Shown here: one piece after another, positions 11,123-51,928 of the stretch | Layout: every line of letters starts with the position of its first letter | Position numbering within the stretch: the first letter of the stretch is position 1 | Origin: Octopus sinensis | Lineage: Eukaryota | Direction: 5' to 3' | Length of the DNA: 64,000 nt | Assembly: GCF_006345805.1 (NCBI RefSeq) | Contig: NC_043005.1 | Span: 26,970,001-27,034,000 of the forward strand | The notes under the pieces: model-generated | Told to the model about the DNA's origin: nothing | Seen by the model: the letters and a program-made list of their open reading frames with translations, nothing else | The model's database searches: none | Position numbers and translations under genes: made by a program

Positions 11123-11979
11123 ATGATGGAATATGAAAGCCTCACCTCCTCGGAGCTTACGTCTTCTGAGGAGGAGCTGTTAAGGTCTGTTGAAATAATG
11201 GACGAATAGTTGAAGAGAAGGAATTTTGCGACTGTCACCAGTGAGCTCGATCTGGCGGAGCTGGATAAATATAAGAACATGCTGTGTAGGGAGGGACGCG
11301 AAGTAAAAGTGTTCCGTCCCCAAGAAATTATGAAAGACACTAAGGAGAAAATGATATTACAACAAACATACTCCACGGAAACAAAGAAGACTGAGATAAT
11401 GACAACTACACAAGTTAAAAGGGCTTTGAAACCAATCTGGCAAGATATCTCGTACCTTGCCAGAGGAAGGAAGTACAGAACGGTGAAGGTGAGTTTCCGA
11501 GAGGTAGCTGTTGCCGGTTACACTCGGCAACCCCTTTAAAAACCGAAGAAGTGGTACTTCTACCCATATACCTTGGAAGACGTGCTTCCAGGGTTAGGGT
11601 AGAAGATATACCACCAGAAATTGACGTAGCCTGGCTAGTAGCTGCCATACTGCTAGGCAATGAAAAGAAGATAGTGGTCCTCCAGGCCACAAGAACAGCT
11701 CATAAAAATTGGCAAGGGCAGACCCTGGATATGATTATCCAGGGGTCCCCGGAAGATATCGAATATTTAATAGAAGCCATCGCTACAGAGGACGTAATAA
11801 TCAGGGTCAGAGTGGAGGGCAGGACTCCGCGTTGCTACAAGTGTGGCCTAAAAAGCCATATTAGAGCGGACTGTCCTTCGCCACCCCAAAAACCCCAAGA
11901 AAGGCTCGTGAGCAGGGAGGAAGCCGCACCACCAGCTCCAACAAAAGAAATGGAAGAAGAAGCAAACAAAGAAGAATGA
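11123..11979 (+). pseudogene. L1/Tx1-type ORF1 (ZCCHC3-like, CCHC zinc knuckle), within an element spanning about 10860-12655
   Basis: ATG at 11123, one in-frame TAG at 11207, and one frameshift near 11520-11550. Contains RVRVEDIPPEI and VEGRTPRCYKCGLKSHIRADC (CX2CX4HX4C). No EN or RT ORF is visible before the hairpin+AATAAAG tail at 12617-12654. Confidence 0.75.
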
Positions 11980-37518: not shown

Positions 37519-39759
37519 TAACATCCAGGTTAAAACAATAAATCAAAAGGTGTCGACATTATAACAAACTATAACCACATTCATCATTATTGTTTTAATG
37601 TCCACCTTTTCACACTTGCATGAGTCAAACAGAAGTTGTGGAGGCAGATTTTCTACAGCTGGATGCCCTTCTTGTCACCAACCCTCACCTGTTCCCCAGC
37701 AAGGTAATATTTCCTTATAACCAGACATGTTTTGCATGGAACACTGAAAACAAACAGCATCTCTTGTATGAAGGTGATGCCTACTTACAGCTATCACACA
37801 ATTTCGAAACAAGGGGACACAAAAACACACACACACACACATACATGTAACTACAAACAGCAAACCAACATACACATAAATATATACACACACACACTAT
37901 ATGTATATTTATACATATATGTATGAAAACACTCCTGCAACAGACAGGTATCCCATCCAGGGTAGAAATAGTTATGCCACAGAATCAGATAGGGAAACTG
38001 GCCTTATGAACCTGTGGCTTGGGAAGGATCTTTGATCTCTTTAACATACAACAGGTGTCTTTGAGCTTTCTTCATCAGCCAGGGTCTACAATAGAAGACA
38101 TCAACCTAAGGTGCAATACAAAAAACAACACAATTGTTTCTAAATCGTGTGAACCAAAATCACACAATTTAGAAGCAAGTTTCTCAACTTCACAACCATA
38201 CCTACAATGACATGGTAAGCAGTGTATTTCTAAGAATTTCTCCAAAATTTTGTCTAACTAAAGCATTTTTTAGCCATTATTTTAAAGCCAATTTAAGTGG
38301 GATTTTTCTCCTTTCAACTAGTTCAACATTTTTTTTAGTCAATTACTTTATTTTTTACTCTCCTTTTTTTTTTCTTCTTAGAGAATTTAACCTACCTTAT
38401 ATTTTTTATTAGGCAGTTTAAATGAACATATTTTTTTAATCATTTAGATAAATTAAGTCGTCTTTTTCCCAGCCATTTCTAAGCCAATTTAACTACCATT
38501 TTTCTTGCTATCAATGCTGGGTATGTTGAAAATATATAAGTGCTTGCATTCTCTCTTAATTATTGCAGTTATCCAAACCACCACCACCACCACCCATTTA
38601 GGCTCTTTTCATTCCAAGTTCAAACCCTGTGGGGGCAAACTTTGCCTTTCATTCTTTCAGAGTAGATAAAATGAATTGAACTCAATACAATCAACTGCAC
38701 AATACCTTCTCTAAACAGTCTGGCCAAGTGCCAATTTTACAAATTAATATTAATGTAGTTATGGCTCCATCATTAAGAAGCTTGCTTCCTGACTTCATGC
38801 CTTTCGGTTCACTCCGACTGTTGTGTGTGTATATATATATGTGTGTGTGTATACTGGGTTGGATTGGATTGCCTTTACTCAGGCCACTGCAAGACAAAGG
38901 CCTCAACAGGTTCTCTCCACCAACCATGGTCCAATGTGGAGGTTGTGGATTTAAGCTTGATCACACTGGTTTGATAAGCCTACTGTGTCACACTAGTTCA
39001 ACATGGCTTGGCAGAAGGATGCAGTTTTCTCTGTTATGCTCTCACCCAGGAGCAGCCAAGTTATGTCGACCTCAGTACACAACTGGTATTTATTTTATCA
39101 ACCCCAAAAAGATGGCAGGCAAAGTCAACCTAGGCACAATTTGAACTCAAAATGTAAAGATGGCTGAAATACCTGTAAACATTTCAGCTGGTATGCTAAC
39201 AATTCTGCCAGTTCACCTGTGTGTGTGCGTGTGTGTGTGTGTGTATATATATATATACACACACACACATACATACATTTAGACATAATACAAGCATACA
39301 TGTGTGTGTGTGTGTGTGTGCGCGTGCATGTCCCCTTGTCTTCACATTGCTTAATAGTAGAAAACAAACATAGCCATCATACAAGCTGTGTTCTTCATTT
39401 CAAATCTTCAGTGAAAACATGTCTATCAATGGGGAAATATCACCATTCTTGGAAACAAGGATTGGCAACGGGAAAAGAATCTGGTCATAGAAAATCTGTT
39501 TAAATAAATTCCATCTGACCCATGCAAGTATAGAAAAATGGACATTAAACTGACGAAAATGATGTATATATATAATGTGTTTTGTTATGCTTTTGTTATA
39601 AATCCTTATTGCTATTACAATCATCACTGACTGATAGCTCCTAAAGTTTTTTTTATTCTCTCTCTGTATATTTCTTCGTATTCCTTTCTGTTTAAGAGCG
39701 TAGGCTCAAAACAAAAGACTTTCTCACCTTTCGAAGCTTTAAACTAATACACCTGTATG

Positions 39760-40127
39760 GAAAATTACTATTTTTAAATCTCACAATGAGAGATATTCAG
39801 CAACAGCACTTTGGAGCAAAGATTATTTGCCAACATAACATGGCAGTCCTGGTTTAGGACAAATGTTGCTGTAATTTAGCCCCAGGAGACATCGTCTCCA
39901 GCTGGCTATACAACACGATCTATGTCCTTATATTTTTGAACAAGGAAATCTAGCACCCCAAATCAGCTCAAAACCACATCTGTGTATCGTGATTTCCAGG
40001 TTATTTCCCTTCATAAGCACCTATCGTGTCATATAGCCAGCTGGAGACAATGTCTCCTGGGGCCAAATTACAGCAACATTCGCCCTAAACCAGGACTGCC
40101 ATCTTATGTTGGCAAACAATCTTTACT
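39760..40127 (-). mobile_element. Penelope-like family 3 palindromic element, copy 1
   Basis: Inverted arms at 39815-39919 and 40023-40127, a tail of about 55 nt on the left, HHR motif at 39980-40020 (-), and a 9-bp duplication tacacctgt at 39748-39756 and 40134-40142. Confidence 0.8.
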
Positions 40128-41228
40128 ACATTGTACACCTGTTTGTTGTTTATACACCTGTCTTCATCTTTGGTTTTCTGTAAATTTCAACATCATAGTT
40201 AAGTATTCTATGGCAACAGCAATTTCAATCCAATTCAATGGCAACATTCTCTTCGGTTACAGTATTTACACTATTCTCTCTTTTATCACTAATTCAATTA
40301 CTCTTTTACTTGTTTCAGTCATTTGACTGCAGCCATGCTGGAGCACCGCCTTTAGTCAAGCAAATCGACCCCAGGACTTATCCTTTGTAAGCCTAGTACT
40401 TATTCTATCTGTCTCTTTTGCCAAACTGCTAAATTACAGGGATGTGAACACACCACCATCGGTTGTGAAGCAATGTTGGGGGGACAGACACAGACACACA
40501 AACATATACACATGCATATATATATATATATATATATATACATACATACATACATACACACACACGACGAACTTCTTTCAGTTTCCGTCTACCAAATCTA
40601 CTCACAAGGCTCTGGTCGGCCTGAGGCTATAGCAGAAGACACTTTCCTAAGGTGCCATGCAATGGGACTAAACCCGGAACCATGTGGTTGGGAAGCAAGC
40701 TACTTACCATACAGCCACTCCTGCGCCTTATTCAATTTTCCAACATTTCAGCTCAAAATATTTCTTCTATCTACTTCAAGTATCTTTTACTTCTTTTAGT
40801 CACTAGACTGTGGGGTAAAGTTGGGGTACCACCTTGAAGAGTTTTCCCAAACAAACCTGTACTGGCTTTACGTTGTAAGCCTACTACTTATTCTATTGGT
40901 CTCTGTTGCCAAACAGTGAACTTATAGATATAAACAAACCAACACCAGTTATCAAGTGATATGGAGACAAACACACACATGATGGGCTTCCATACAACTT
41001 CTGTCCATCAAATTTGCTTAGGAAGGCAATGGTTGTCTTGGGGCTATAGAAGAAGACACTTGCCTAAGGTGCTATGCAGCGGCACTGAACCCAAAATCAT
41101 AAGGTTGCAAAGTGAGTTTCATAACAACACAGTTGTATCTGTTCCTGAAGCCATTGAAAAGATGAATGTAAAGCAAAACAAAGCCAAATACAGCATTTTC
41201 TTTTTGGAATCTTAAATTGAAGGTTATA

Positions 41229-41792
41229 CAAGGGTGAGTCAAAAGGTAATGCCGTTTTGTTTAGGACAGGTATAATTACCAACACAGGAACATGTATCAT
41301 ACTTCAAAATGAAGCTGGTCCTCTGTCGATCACATATCTACTTCAACATAGTCACCATTTCTCTCAATAGCAATGTTCCACCTTCCAATGAGAGCATGTA
41401 TTCCTGCCCTGTAAAATTCTGTTGACTGCTCTTTGAGCCACTTCTTCATTACAGTTTTCAATTCCTTGTCACTGGAATAATGTTTGCCTCTCAAACCCTC
41501 TTTAATGGGGAGAAAGGGATGATAGTCCAGTGATAATGATAGTCCAGTGACGAGGAAGTGAAAACTGTAGTGAAGAAGTGGATTAAAGAACAGTCAGCAG
41601 AATTTTGGGTGGCAGGGATACATGCTTTCATTCGAAGGTGGAACATTGCTATCGAGAGAAACGGTAACTATGTTGAGAAGTAGGGATGTGATCAACAGAG
41701 GACCAGCTTCATTTTGATGTATGATACATATTCCTGTGTTGGTAATTATACCTGTCCTAAACAAAATGGCATTAGTTTTTGACTCACCCTCG
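41229..41792. mobile_element. Mariner-derived foldback MITE (two inverted 3' ends), copy 1
   Basis: Flanked by TA. Inverted arms of about 248 bp at 41229-41476 and 41543-41792, each carrying the mariner transposase C-terminal coding sequence (SSDEEVKTVVKKW...RRWNIAIERNG.YVEK). Confidence 0.9.
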
Positions 41793-42484
41793 TAGTTTTT
41801 AAAGATATAAAAGTAAACACAAAACTTTCTGTCTCATCAATGAATCTGTTTTTTTCTGCCCTAAAATTGGTGTCTAGAAAGTCTATTGGTTTATGTCTAA
41901 ATTCTTTGAAGGTTGACCAATGCCTTGCGTGTGTGAATGTCACTGAGCTACAACCAAGCTGGAGCACCACTTTCAAAGTTTTTCATTAAATGTATTAGTC
42001 TGATGCTCATTTTATCAATCACAGTTTATTAAATACTTCGATTTTTTTTGACAAAGATGACAAGCACTTTGTCATGACAAAGATGACAAGCACTTTGTCA
42101 TGCCACTAAACACACACACATATGATGAGCTTTGTCCGTTTCCTGTCTACCATATTTCATTCACAATGCATTAGTAGGCTCTCAGAGACATTATATGTAT
42201 GAAATCTAGATGAGAAAGTGAGGAGACAAACAGACAGACAGGGATGGGCAGATCTACTGATGTGACTCAAATCCCCATATCTGTCTATTTTTATATAATT
42301 TTATAAAAATTCTATTTTTAACTTTAAATTTTTCAAAAACTAAGATGTTTGCCTTGATGGTGATGTAATAATTGTCTCCCTTGGATTTGCTCTCTGCACT
42401 GTACATACACTTTTGGCTACCTTTCCTGATTAGTTGTAGAGCACCTAAGCACCATACACAATAAGTTCGGAATCATTTCTAAGG

Positions 42485-47135: not shown

Positions 47136-47702
47136 GAAAATTACTATTTTTAAATCTCATAATGAGAGATATTCAGCAACAGTACTTTGGAGTAAAGATT
47201 GTTTGCCAACATAACATGGCAGTCCTGGTTTAGGACTAATGTTGCTGTAATTTAGCCCCAGGAGACATTGTCTCCAGCTGGCTATACGACACGATCTGAG
47301 TCCTTATATTTTCAAACAAGGGAATCTAGTACCCCACACCCAGCTCAAAACAATATCTGTGTATCGCGATTTCTGGGTTATTTCTCTTCATCGGCACAGA
47401 ATAATTGCTTGGCTAGAGGTGGTGCTGCCAAATTCCCATTTGAAATATATAGTTATCACTTTGAAAACTATATATTTCGAACAGGAAATTGGCAGTGCCA
47501 TCTCTAGCCAGAACAATTATTCTGAATCGCGATACACCAATATTGTTTTGAGCTGAGTGGGGGTGATAGATTCCCTTGTTTGAAAATATAAGGACACAGA
47601 TCGTGCTGTATGGCCGGCTGGAGACGATGTCTCTTGGGGCTAAATTACAGCAACATTCGTCCTAAACCAGGACTGCCATGTTATGTTGGCAAACAATCTT
47701 TA
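47136..47702 (-). mobile_element. Penelope-like family 3 palindromic element, copy 2 (longest)
   Basis: Inverted arms at 47193-47454 and 47466-47702 around an 11-nt loop, with the same left tail as the other copies. HHR motif at 47357-47399 (-). The HHR core is deleted from the right arm at 47524/47525. Confidence 0.85.
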
Positions 47703-48658
47703 GTATTTCGCCTGTCTTCACGTTCTAAGTTCAAATTCTGCCAAAGTCGACCTTGCCTTTCATCCTTTTAGGTTCAATAAAATTAATACCAGCTGAGTAC
47801 TGGGGTCGCTGTAACTGACAATCTCCCTCTCCCTAATTTCAGGCCTTGTGCCTATAGTAGAAAGGAATAATGATCAAGATTAGAGGAAAGGGAAAAATTT
47901 TGCAGAGCAGCTGACCAGATGAGGATTTAGTTTGATCTGTTACCTCAACCAGAGTTGGCATTGCCTTGTATTTGCTAAAGAATGACATGTGACCCTATAA
48001 CACAGGGAGGGGGACTAGTTCTATCAAATATTCCCACCACCCCCATCATGAAAATTGCTCTTGTATCTGAATACAATGACCACATTTAATGTCTCGGTCA
48101 ACAAACAGGTGTTTTTCTATTGAACATTGAATCAAGAGAGATGACTATGCTACTCAGTCAGTCACTCAACCTACTAGAAATAGCAGTCAAATATTCTTCC
48201 CATCACAGCTTAGAGTTTTTATTTTTAAAGAAAAAAAGAATGACTGGAATGACTTTGATCATAGGTCAACTGTATCAGAGCTGAGTTAGGGTTAAACAGT
48301 AACAACAAAAGCCTCAAGCACACCGTCCAGAAGAAACTGGACAACAAATTCTTTTCCAGTAGCACAAAACATTGTAACTAACAATTATCAAAGAAACAAT
48401 TCTGTACAAAGAAAGAGGCCTTTACATGGAGACTTACTTAACATGCTAGAAAATAGAGGCAAATCTTTCTCTAATACTTTCAGACTTACTACCTTAAAAA
48501 AAAAATGGTCATAGGCACAGGAGTGGCTGTGTGGTAAGTAGCTTGCTTACCAACCACATGGTTCCAGGTTCAGTCCCACTGCATGGCACCTTGGGCAAGT
48601 GTCTTCTAATATAGCCTTGTGAGTAGATTTGGTAGACAGAAACTGAAAGAAGCCCATC

Positions 48659-48715
<57 letters not shown>

Positions 48716-49998
48716 CGTGACTGTATGGGAAGAAGCTTGCTTCCCAACCACATGGTTCCAGGTTCAGTCCTACTGCATGGCACCTTGGGCAAGTGTCTCC
48801 TACTATAGCCACGGGCTGACGAAAGCCTTGTGAGTAGACTGAAAGAAGCCCATTACATATATATATATATATATATATTTGTGTGTCTGTGTTTGTCCTC
48901 GCCACCATTACTTGACAACCGATGTTGGTGTGTTTACATACCCGTAACATAGCAGTTCAGCAAAAGAGACTGATAGAATACGCACTAGGCTTAAAAAGAA
49001 TAAGTCCCAGGGTTGATTTGTTCAACTAAAGACGGTGCTCCAACATGGCCACAGTCAAATGACTGAAACAAATAAAGGAATAAAAGAATGGAGTGTTTTT
49101 TTTTTTTTTATTCACAGGTCTGTAGGATCAAGGCTTCTCGGCCTCTACATTGGTCATTTTTGCTGACCAGTTATCAAAGAAACGCTGTCATCCTCCAATG
49201 GCTACAGAGCTGTCTCTTTCAACAGCTAAGGAAAAAAAAGTTTCCCGTCTCTCCCTCCCAACACTTCTATTGATCAGTGAACCAAGAAAAGACATTTTTA
49301 ATGACCATCATTTATGTTTTGGAAAATTGCTGAAGAGGAAGACAAAGATGAAAAAAGACCAAAATATGAGTGGAGGGAAGGAAGATAAAGAAAATAAGAT
49401 TCATTGTCACCATCATCGTTTAACGTCAGTTTTCAATGCTGGCATGGGTTGGACGATTTGATTGAGGTCTGGAGAGCCAGCGGCTGCACCAAAAAATATG
49501 TGTGTGTGTGTCTCTCTCTTTGTTGTGGCATTGGACAATAGTTCTAACCAAAGGCCAATGTCATTCCAGTAATATTATTCATTTCCAATCTTCCACGAAA
49601 ACATGTCCAGACATGAGGAGATATTACCTTGCTTGGAAACAAGTGAGGGCTGACAACAGGAAGGGCATTCAGCTTTAGATGGTCTGCCTCAGCAAATCCC
49701 TTCTAAATCATGACAGTATGGAAAAGTGGATGTTAAAAGACAGTGACAATGGAAAAATACCACAAGAGGACATTCTACATAATGTAATATAGAGTAGAAT
49801 GTCACAAGGAGTGGCAAAAGTTCAACTGAGGTGAAGAGGAAAAAAAAACTCCCTCTAGTGGTGATCAAACTGAAAAAGATAAGCAAGGGAGACAATACTT
49901 ACAATATAAATATATTTGGGAAATCAATGGAAAGCTTTTAGGAGTGGAGCTTGTCTTTGTAACCAAAAAGTGAAAGTAACAAACAAGTTCCTACTTTG

Positions 49999-50368
49999 GA
50001 AAATTACCCTTTGTAAATCTCACAAGGAGAGAGATTCAGCAACAGTACTTTGGAGTAAAGATTATTTACCAACATAACATGGCAGTCCTGGTTTAGGACG
50101 AATGTTGCTATAATTCAGCCCCAGGAAACATCGTCTCCAGCTGGCTATACGACACTATCTGTGTCCTTATATTTTCGAACAAAGGAATCTAGCACCCCAA
50201 CTCAGCTCAAAACAATATCTGTGTATCGCGATTACTGGGTTATTTCCTTTCATCAGCACAGAATAATTGTTCGGCTAGAGGTGGCACTGCCAAATTCCTG
50301 CTCAAATAGAAAATTACTTTTATTACAAACCAGAACTGCCATGTTGTGCTGGCAAATAATCTTTACTC
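49999..50368 (-). mobile_element. Penelope-like family 3 palindromic element, copy 3
   Basis: Same left end as copies 1 and 2, short right arm at about 50327-50370, HHR motif at 50219-50261 (-). 15-bp TSD caagttccta(c/t)tttg at 49984-49998 and 50369-50383, one mismatch. Confidence 0.85.
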
Positions 50369-51379
50369 CAAGTTCCTATTTTGTTCTTCAGCAAATCAAA
50401 AGAGGAGACTCACATATCTAATAAAGACATGGTAGTAGTGTAGGCTCGGCTGTGTGATTAAAAAGTTTGCTTCCTAACCATTAGGTTCTGGGTTTAGGCC
50501 CACATTAGGAAAGTACCTTCTACTGTAACCCTAGGTCCACCAAAGCCAAGTGGATTTGATTAGAGAGAAACTAAATGAAGCTCATCATGTGAGAGAGAAA
50601 GAAAGAGTGTGTGTGTGTGTGTGTGTGTGCATGTGTGTGTGTTCATTCCTGTGCATGCATTATGTATCATTTCCATTATTTAATGTTTGTTTTCCATGCT
50701 GGCATGGGTTGAATGATTTCCATGCTGGCATGGATTAGATGATACAAAAGCAGATAAGAGAAACAACAATTAGAAGGACAGACAAAAAGACGGGTCATTC
50801 GTGGCTTTCTTTCCTCAGTCAAGTTCCAGAAGTCACATGTATATATATTGTGATTTTAACACACCATGTTTATGAAGAGATTCTCTCTCTCAGACAAAAA
50901 TCACAGCAGTATGCCTTTCTATAGTGTATATATACTATCAAGACAATTTTCCCATTACATGGTGGTAGGCCCCTCATCTGGGTTGCTACATGCTGAGATA
51001 CCTTCTTCAGCATCAGTTTGGGGTGTTCAGCAACCAGTCCATCAGACCAAGAAGGGCACTGTCATAGTATCATCCACTCTGAGGGCTTTGAGGCTGAGCC
51101 TGTGGCAGTGGAGACATCCAGCGTTCTCAGCCACTTGACCACATCCCTGCTCACCACTATCAGGCCAGAGATGGCCTTCTGTAAATACAAGCCCAGTGAG
51201 TCAGAATGGCTGTTCTGGTGAATCTCTCTTGCTATATTTCAGGGTAACACATTTCCCCATTTTGGGACCATGAGACAGACTGACATGCCTGTTTAGACAT
51301 TATATGTCACTTATTGTTTTAGTCATTAATACATTTTGGAAAATTTTATTCTGATTTCTCTATAATCTTGAACTATATA

Positions 51380-51928
51380 CGAGGGTGAGTAAAAAAGTAA
51401 TGCCATTTTGTTTAGGACAGGTATAATTACCAACACAGGAACATGTATCATACATCAAAATGAAGCTGGTCCTCTGTCGATCACATCCCTACTTATCAAC
51501 ATAGTCACCATTTCTCTCAATAGCAATGTTCCACCTTCGAATGAGAGCATGTATCCCTGCCCCGTAAAATTCTGTTGACTGTTCTTTGAGCCACTTCTTC
51601 ACTACAGTTTTCACTTCCTTGTCACTGGAATAATGTTTGCCTCTCAAACCCTCTTTCATGGGGCCAAAGAGATGATAGTCCAGTGACAAAGAAGTGAAAA
51701 CTGTAGTGAAGAAGTGGCTCAAAGAACAGTCAACAGAATTTTGCGGGGCAGGGATACATGCTCCCATTCAAAGGTGGAACATTGCTATTGGGAGAAGCGG
51801 TGACTATGTTGAGAAGTAGGGATGTGATACACAGAGCACCAGCTTCATTTTGATGTATGATACATGTTCCTGTGTTGGTAAATATACCTGTCCTAAACAA
51901 AATGGCAATATTTTTTGACTCACCCTCA
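51380..51928. mobile_element. Mariner-derived foldback MITE, copy 2
   Basis: Inverted arms of about 250 bp at 51380-51629 and 51679-51928, with the same junction as copy 1. ORF 51489..51767 shows DYHLFGPMKEGLRGKHYSSD. Confidence 0.9.

What the first reader, a model, noticed from the sequence alone, without database searches (positions are those of the whole stretch)
47136..47702. Non-coding palindromic retroelement family carrying a hammerhead ribozyme (3 copies: 39760-40127, 47136-47702, 49999-50368)
Seen: the three copies share one fixed end with a tail of about 55 nt and have inverted second arms of very different length (about 105, 240 and 45 bp). Two copies have TSD-like duplications (9 and 15 bp). 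On the minus strand their consensus reads CTGTG-CTGATGA-A-GGG-aaataa-CCC-(G)-GAAA-TCGCGA-TA-CACAG, i.e. a 5-bp stem I, the CUGAUGA/GAAA core, a short stem II, a palindromic stem III (AUCGCGAU) and an AUA cleavage triplet. Each copy has a different single core substitution (CTTATGA, CCGATGA, GTAA), so the ancestor was probably intact. Established: minimal type I hammerheads with a palindromic stem III that act as dimers, and inverted pseudo-LTRs with a one-sided tail, are hallmarks of Penelope-like elements. Inference: this is a non-autonomous, retrozyme-like PLE family. I cannot tell whether it is already catalogued.
Basis: partly seen in the sequence, partly recalled or inferred. Interest (0 to 1): 0.85.

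Follow-up and report, generated by a model that had tools for sequence, protein, structure and literature searches.

The report
Hammerhead retrozymes with Penelope insertion signature
This is a 353-base non-coding repeat with a hammerhead-ribozyme motif and an estimated few thousand copies in this animal genome; its insertions show the two fixed ends and one-sided tail of Penelope retrotransposons, so it is likely a retrozyme (a known class) copied by borrowed Penelope proteins.

Summary
Confirmed, and mostly a known kind of element. The three copies are 5'-truncated, inverted insertions of a 353-nt non-coding unit that also lies head-to-tail elsewhere in the genome (about 3,300 arms estimated). 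The column majority has a complete type I hammerhead core, and 58 exact intact motifs exist; all three window copies are damaged. It is the canonical retrozyme-type hammerhead, not the minimal PLE type, with an A·G mismatch at the base of helix II. Insertions have two fixed 3' ends about 52 nt apart, variable 8-15 bp TSDs and TAA at the long end: the tail geometry shown in vitro for a Penelope-like element. Three sister families (B, C, D; B and C 52-58% identical) share the fold with compensatory changes. No ORF-bearing copy and no autonomous partner was found. 5' breakpoints and RNA read ends are not enriched at the cut site, so cleavage and circles remain untested. Verdict: new non-LTR retrozyme families, that is non-autonomous Penelope-like elements. 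The added value is insertion-level evidence for PLE mobilisation and natural ribozyme variants for assay.

The parts
47136..47702 (.). Copy 2: long arm 47136-47470 (unit positions q353 to q20, hammerhead sense on minus) plus inverted short arm 47450-47702 (q20 to q296) with a 25-nt deletion of the core at 47524|47525
   Evidence: L028
47357..47399 (-). Hammerhead motif of copy 2 (U4 to C substitution); predicted cut between 47362 and 47361
47136..47192 (-). One-sided tail of copy 2 (q297-353), absent from the inverted arm
   Evidence: (I15)
39760..40130 (.). Copy 1: long arm 39760-40020 (q353 to q93) plus inverted arm to about 40130 (ends near q301)
   Evidence: L061
39980..40020 (-). Hammerhead remnant of copy 1 (G5 to U substitution, stem I cut to 3 bp by the inversion junction)
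39748..39756 (+). Left copy of the 9-bp target duplication of copy 1
40134..40142 (+). Right copy of the 9-bp target duplication of copy 1
49999..50371 (.). Copy 3: long arm 49999-50298 (q353 to q54), about 28 nt of filler, inverted arm 50327-50371 (q258 to q302)
   Evidence: L001
50219..50261 (-). Hammerhead motif of copy 3 (A13 to U substitution); predicted cut between 50224 and 50223
49984..49998 (+). Left copy of the 15-bp target duplication of copy 3
50369..50383 (+). Right copy of the 15-bp target duplication of copy 3 (14 of 15 identical; first 3 bases shared with the element end)

Best explanation
The three copies are damaged, 5'-truncated and inverted insertions of a 353-nt non-coding unit with a type I hammerhead motif, likely a non-LTR retrozyme that was copied into new sites by the RT/GIY-YIG protein of a Penelope-like element. 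Shown: unit length, head-to-tail arrays, no ORF, two fixed 3' ends (q353 and about q301), variable TSDs, an AU-rich long end, a conserved fold. Inferred: a more-than-unit RNA (tandem transcript or circle) is bound by PLE protein; both target strands are nicked 8-15 bp apart; cDNA starts internally at q353 from one nick and at about q301 from the other; the two truncated cDNAs join head to head, which gives the palindrome with a one-sided 52-nt tail. The hammerhead would cut tandem transcripts after AUA (q128) into monomers that may circularise, probably as a dimer through the 8-nt palindrome. The cut linear monomer is not the only template, because many arms run through the cut site.
For: Fixed ends: of 64 elements with a 3' end on both sides, 57 end at q351-353 and 50 at q295-310; in the 22 chosen on the core alone, 17 and 19. 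TSD of at least 8 bp in 37 of 47 complete elements against 4% in shuffled pairings; T, A, A follow the long end in 33, 41 and 34 of 47. PMC11167929 shows in vitro that a PLE starts RT at two internal sites whose interval is the genomic tail, and prefers ATT. Closed unit: 60 of 69 segments that reach q1 run on into the previous unit's tail; the longest stop-free stretch in a two-unit tandem is 70 codons. Core: majority letter in at least 31 of 34 segments at each core position; 58 exact motifs, control 0; 23 core substitutions against 39 expected. Fold: z -4.4 to -8.0; in a fold predicted from one family-A copy, pairs with both sides changed still pair in 19 of 26 (family B) and 14 of 18 (family C); all six stem I pairs show two-sided changes. 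RT + GIY-YIG PLEs with 775-883-codon frames and their own hammerhead motifs are in the genome.
Against: No PLE with a terminal sequence like this unit was found in 74 PLE-type loci (30 + 14 + 30). The four distinct hits there look like separate insertions of sister families. The PLEs and sister families examined mostly abut (TA)n tracts while family A does not, so those PLEs may not be its partner. Helix II has an A·G (32 of 52) or A·A (19 of 52) base in family A. The isolated motif's minimum-energy fold mispairs the core, 6.5-7.5 kcal/mol below the hammerhead fold. 5' breakpoints are not enriched at the cut site (3 observed, 3.9 expected). Three RNA runs of organism B show no pile-up of read ends, and 67-76% of reads run on into unlike flanks.
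Confidence: 0.82

Rival explanations
1. The copies are terminal (pLTR) fragments of an autonomous PLE whose full-length form is rare or extinct.
For: Same insertion anatomy as autonomous PLEs (PMC8557442 passages). Genome searches score only 40-150 candidates each, so rare full-length copies could be missed.
Against: 60 of 69 segments reaching q1 continue into the unit's own tail, and none continue into a shared ORF; tblastn of four PLE proteins finds nothing in 120 family-A loci or the window. Arrays of up to 3.5 units without an ORF exist. The hammerhead is the canonical retrozyme type, unlike those in this genome's PLE 3' regions.
Confidence: 0.08
2. PLE-mobilised as above, but family A's hammerhead is a weak or dead relic; the template was uncut read-through RNA from tandem source loci and no circle is involved.
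For: A·G base of helix II against A-U in family C (22 of 22) and 13 of 27 in family B. No breakpoint or read-end signal at the cut. PMC11167929: ribozyme cleavage was dispensable for insertion in vitro. In 10.64898/2026.07.22.740005, 8 of 9 Xenopus retrozyme dimers did not cleave.
Against: Core deficit of substitutions (23 vs 39). Family B tolerates U·U and G·U at the same place. An axolotl motif with a U·U base cleaves 22% as a monomer and better as a dimer (PMC7229834 section 15). Direct units of one insertion share private variants (146 of 328, non-independent pairs) far above background (5%), as a circular template would give.
Confidence: 0.3
3. A palindromic DNA transposon (MITE) or a fold-back repair product with a chance hammerhead-like string.
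For: Inverted arms; no Rfam hammerhead match.
Against: Ends are asymmetric by about 52 nt, TSD length varies, junctions vary along the whole unit, tandem units exist, and stems I-III plus the C3-G8 / U3-A8 pair covary between families.
Confidence: 0.01

Closest known systems
Metazoan non-LTR retrozymes (PMC7229834; mussel 350-390 bp repeats, axolotl Rtz_353 / HHR_Amex2)
   Same: Non-coding unit of about 350 nt, dispersed and tandem, GC under 45%, one canonical type I hammerhead per unit, 2-bp helix III with a palindromic loop, weak base of helix II as in Amex2, strongly self-paired RNA, TSD longer than 4 bp.
   Different: Mismatch is A·G rather than U·U. Most copies are truncated and inverted, not arrays. 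Circles and cleavage are not shown here. A full-text search of that paper found the word 'inverted' 0 times.
Non-LTR retrozymes as non-autonomous PLE derivatives (bioRxiv 10.64898/2026.07.22.740005)
   Same: Co-occurrence with EN+ PLEs; monomer, dimer and multimer copies.
   Different: That study rests on co-occurrence and pLTR sequence similarity, mainly in vertebrates; the parts read do not analyse insertion ends. Here the link is insertion geometry, and no pLTR homologue was found.
Poseidon PLE of Anolis, PAc (PMC11167929)
   Same: Two internal RT starts downstream of the hammerhead that define a tail; AT-rich target; no read ends at the cut site.
   Different: PAc is autonomous with an ORF; its tail is shorter (30-40 bp is quoted for Penelope, about 52 here) and lies nearer the ribozyme.

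Membership tests
non-LTR retrozyme | Non-coding unit of about 150-450 bp in dispersed and head-to-tail copies | tested here: met
   353-nt unit, arrays of 2-3.5 units; longest stop-free stretch 70 codons
non-LTR retrozyme | One canonical type I hammerhead per unit | tested here: met
   caveat: A·G base of helix II and no Rfam match
non-LTR retrozyme | TSD, when present, longer than 4 bp | tested here: met
   37 of 47 with at least 8 bp, null 4%
non-LTR retrozyme | Highly self-paired monomer RNA | tested here: met
   z -6.07; -4.4 to -8.0 and covariation across families
non-LTR retrozyme | Self-cleavage in vitro | not testable with these tools
   needs a transcription assay
non-LTR retrozyme | Accumulates as a circular RNA | tested here: inconclusive
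   18-23 reads per run cross the unit boundary, but genomic tandems give the same joint; no end pile-up; standard cDNA libraries of organism B
Penelope-like element (insertion anatomy) | 5' truncation with an adjacent inverted 5'-truncated copy | tested here: met
   64 of 92 elements have 3' ends on both sides
Penelope-like element (insertion anatomy) | One-sided tail between two fixed RT starts | tested here: met
   q351-353 and q295-310; also families B and C and loose read ends in organism B
autonomous Penelope-like element | RT + GIY-YIG ORF within the element | tested here: not met
   no tblastn hit in 120 loci or the window
non-autonomous partner of a named PLE | Shared terminal sequence with an autonomous PLE | tested here: inconclusive
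   none in 74 PLE-type loci, a small sample of 5029 and 7758 first-look candidates
minimal PLE-type hammerhead (PMC4209133) | Long helix II (6-8 bp), short helix I (4-5 bp or less), reduced helix III | tested here: not met
   helix I 6 bp with a paired extension, helix II 3 bp plus mismatch, helix III 2 bp plus a 4-nt loop
MITE / DNA transposon | Symmetric terminal inverted repeats and fixed-length TSD | tested here: not met

The most novel reading that the evidence does not exclude
A superfamily of at least four structured ~355-nt retrozymes whose insertion ends map the two PLE reverse-transcription starts onto a conserved RNA fold. The conserved hairpins upstream of the tail would be the cis element by which any RNA recruits Penelope protein, and family A reached thousands of copies after losing the Watson-Crick base of helix II, which would show that PLE recruitment and not ribozyme cutting drives retrozyme spread.
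Probability: 0.25. Interest if true: 0.68.

Novelty: new member of a known kind. Interest (0 to 1): 0.45.

Why it matters
Retrozymes are thought to be mobilised by PLEs, on grounds of co-occurrence and pLTR similarity. These families carry the PLE-specific two-start tail signature on an ORF-less, closed unit, which is mechanistic support for that link. They also give natural variants (A·G, A-U, U·U, G·U at the base of helix II; C3-G8 versus U3-A8) and a covarying fold, so two open questions become testable: whether cutting and circularisation are needed for spread, and which RNA structure PLE protein recognises.

Tried and rejected
Rfam scans gave no hammerhead match; the motif rests on manual mapping and covariation. 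Partner search: GIY-YIG family search, 14 longer PLE stretches, a second, divergent GIY-YIG lineage; blastn and an nhmmer profile of 13 natural units hit only copies of families B, C and D. A Pfam accession recalled for a PLE domain is not in the library. A pattern for a family-A-like motif with an A-U helix II base found 0. The idea that the breakpoint cluster at q323-333 marks an initiator-like start site was dropped: the majority base there is a CpG G and the site lies in a hairpin loop; about 5 of the 15 events are small internal deletions. Co-folding two motifs did not give the active dimer (-43.0 against 2 x -20.6); energy models do not decide this. The look-up of sequencing runs listed no RNA holder on record; the RNA runs laid were added by species label. 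Two look-ups in earlier scan findings returned nothing. The tree of GIY-YIG fragments had unsettled support and was used only to pick a divergent query.

Full report
Observation. The three copies are real and about 90% identical. Each has a long arm from one fixed end and an inverted arm that stops about 52 nt short of it. TSDs of 9 and 15 bp flank copies 1 and 3; copy 2's right end abuts another repeat. Positions 'q' below count on a natural 353-nt unit (L006:1410-1762) in the hammerhead sense; the motif is q91-133 and the predicted cut follows q128.

Genome-wide family (A). The window lies in a 2.72-Gb genome, G000. Its microsatellites and SINE-like repeats look to me like an octopus; that is recalled and was not tested. 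The arm gave 3575 first-look candidates, 40 scored. An internal 30-nt pattern has 770 exact matches, control 0; 45 of 194 sampled segments match it exactly, which scales to about 3,300 arms (rough, and the sample favours well-kept copies). 132 segments differ from the column majority by a median 3.9% outside CpG and 20% at CpG, so the family is not very young. The unit lies head-to-tail with a 352-353-nt period. Of 69 segments that reach q1, 60 continue into the previous unit's tail at 9 of 12 letters or better (two of these are borderline, and five of the nine misses look like the tail shifted by a letter or two). Four PLE proteins give no tblastn hit in 120 family-A loci or in the window, and a two-unit tandem has no stop-free stretch over 70 codons. 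The unit is therefore non-coding and closed on itself.

Insertion anatomy. In 86 loci (90 less 4 duplicates) there were 92 elements; 64 have a 3' end on both sides. The long end is at q351-353 in 57 and the short end at q295-310 in 50. Two of the three locus sets were chosen with the long end in the query; in the set chosen on the core alone the counts are 17 and 19 of 22. Among 47 elements with both fixed ends, 37 have a TSD of at least 8 bp (26 at least 10), against 4.2% and 0.4% in shuffled pairings; lengths run to 15, with one 18 in a T tract. T, A, A follow the long end in 33, 41 and 34 of 47; these letters also begin the next unit, so they may be element, target or both. PMC11167929 (main text, parts 1-2 of 4 read) shows that a Poseidon PLE starts reverse transcription at two internal sites whose interval is the genomic tail, cuts both strands, prefers ATT, and does not need ribozyme cleavage in vitro. 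PMC8557442 (passages) describes the inverted 5'-truncated copy and one-sided tail as PLE features.

Ribozyme. In 34 segments not chosen on the core, each core position keeps the hammerhead letter in at least 31. Of 50 such segments spanning the motif, 37 have an intact core and 19 also keep all nine stem pairs. 58 exact 34-nt motifs exist, control 0. Core positions carry 23 substitutions against 39 expected from base-matched non-CpG sites (Poisson P 0.004; copies are not independent). By PMC4209133 (parts 1-2 of 4 read) this is the canonical metazoan type I form, not the minimal one. Against activity: the base of helix II is A·G in 32, A·A (CpG decay) in 19 and A-U in 1 of 52; the isolated motif prefers a mispaired fold, though the B and C motifs do too; Rfam finds no hammerhead. 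The stem III palindrome would self-pair at -10.1 kcal/mol, which fits dimer action but does not show it.

Sister families. Loci next to PLEs revealed families B (352 nt, 96-98% to the query), C (361 nt, 95-98%) and one D copy; a further B copy turned up. B and C are collinear with A at 52-58% identity, occur in tandems and have two fixed 3' ends about 44 and 55 nt apart; their outer ends mostly abut (TA)n. C has the U3-A8 core in 21 of 22; the helix II base is A-U in 22 of 22 C copies, and A-U, U·U or G·U in 13, 8 and 6 of 27 B copies. In an alignment of 11 natural cut-to-cut units, 27 of 65 predicted pairs show two-sided changes against 2-8 when slid; that structure was derived from the same alignment and only three lineages contribute. 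A less circular test: in the fold of one A copy, pairs with both letters changed still pair in 19 of 26 (B) and 14 of 18 (C); for a second A copy 16 of 23 and 12 of 21; slid controls pair about 35-50% of the time.

Template. Of 220 arms, 173 had a fixed 3' end and 170 entered a left-truncated hazard count (long arrays L005/6, L014, L084/5 and duplicates left out; L187 was counted four times by error, in the q334-353 bin). Breakpoints are not enriched at the cut (3 observed, 3.9 expected); 45 arms pass q1 and 14 exceed 385 nt, so many templates were uncut, multimeric or circular. The hazard is 0.4-0.8 per 100 nt at q121-280 and 1.4-2.0 at q41-120, with a cluster at q323-333 that I cannot explain. 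Private variants are shared by direct units of one locus in 146 of 328 cases (dominated by non-independent pairs, some later duplications), by inverted arms in 51 of 380, and between loci in 5.0%. A circle would give this, but so would homogenised source arrays or conversion.

RNA. No listed holder was on record as RNA. Three raw RNA runs of organism B, which may not be the window's species, gave 1471-1910 reads per 11.5-12.9 million on one unit. Directions were about equal, 67-76% ran on into unlike sequence, loose ends fell at the two fixed ends, 18-23 reads per run crossed the unit boundary, and there was no pile-up of ends. This looks like read-through of copies inside host transcripts; such libraries may miss small circles.

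Partner. The genome holds RT + GIY-YIG PLEs with frames of 775-883 codons, several with a U3-A8 hammerhead motif 0.4-1.2 kb past the endonuclease match. None of 74 PLE-type loci has termini like A-D. The partner is unidentified.

Comparison and novelty. It works like, and meets the testable features of, a non-LTR retrozyme (PMC7229834: sections 14 and 15 and passages read; mussel repeats of 350-390 bp, axolotl Amex2 with a U·U helix II base). A 2026 preprint (10.64898/2026.07.22.740005, parts 1-3 of 5 read, supplements not seen) already argues that retrozymes are non-autonomous PLEs. Five literature searches showed no report of these families or of the two-start tail on retrozymes; a giant-squid genome paper mentions 235 Rfam hammerhead matches (PMC6962438, passages). 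Repbase, Dfam, subscription journals and supplements were not seen and may list the family. Verdict: new members of a known kind, with useful mechanistic evidence; interest 0.45.

Noticed in passing
L005:2116-2500 with runs X21-X23 against genomic copies: RNA reads show A>G at 29-33 and T>C at 22-29 places, against 9 and 3 in genomic copies and 5 and 1 in contig run X1, while C>T and G>A are similar. At q257, T>C is in about a quarter of reads and 0 of 210 genomic segments. This looks like A-to-I editing of the hairpins made by inverted arms; no matched DNA, and the species may differ.
   Followed up: partly
L135-L159 (family B), L160-L184 (family C), L117:43-419 (D), L217: Three further hammerhead-bearing families homologous to A; B and C are younger (95-98%), sit in (TA)n tracts and are better candidates for live RNA.
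   Followed up: partly
L121-L134: Young RT + GIY-YIG PLE family with several intact 780-781-codon frames, about 4.7 kb tandem period in L127, (TA)n flanks and a U3-A8 hammerhead motif near the 3' end; two copies have a 479-codon frame upstream with no Pfam match (L123 scanned).
   Followed up: partly
window 41300-41794 and 51378-51927: A second palindromic family with about 250-bp arms, 93-94% complementary, symmetric ends next to TA; looks like a mariner-type MITE (label recalled).
   Followed up: no
L014:2070-3192: At least seven head-to-tail copies of only q141-301 (about 163 bp): a minisatellite born from the retrozyme, ending at the short fixed end and lacking the ribozyme.
   Followed up: no
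unit q323-333; family C q167-181: Clusters of 5' breakpoints: in family A within a small hairpin inside the tail (with recurrent deletions of about q311-326), in family C near q172. Cause unknown.
   Followed up: partly
L136 and L164: Additional, unrelated hammerhead-like motifs turned up in the flanks of family B and C loci (two near-identical ones in L136), suggesting more ribozyme families in this genome; the locus of the one among L160-L184 was not pinned down, L164 is not confirmed.
   Followed up: no
window 47703-47828 and many other places (families D9-D20): Abundant SINE-like repeats; one abuts the short end of copy 2 and probably hides its TSD.
   Followed up: no
window 11419-11979 (+): A 186-codon frame with a CCHC zinc-knuckle pattern, probably a gag/ORF1-like retroelement fragment.
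   Followed up: no
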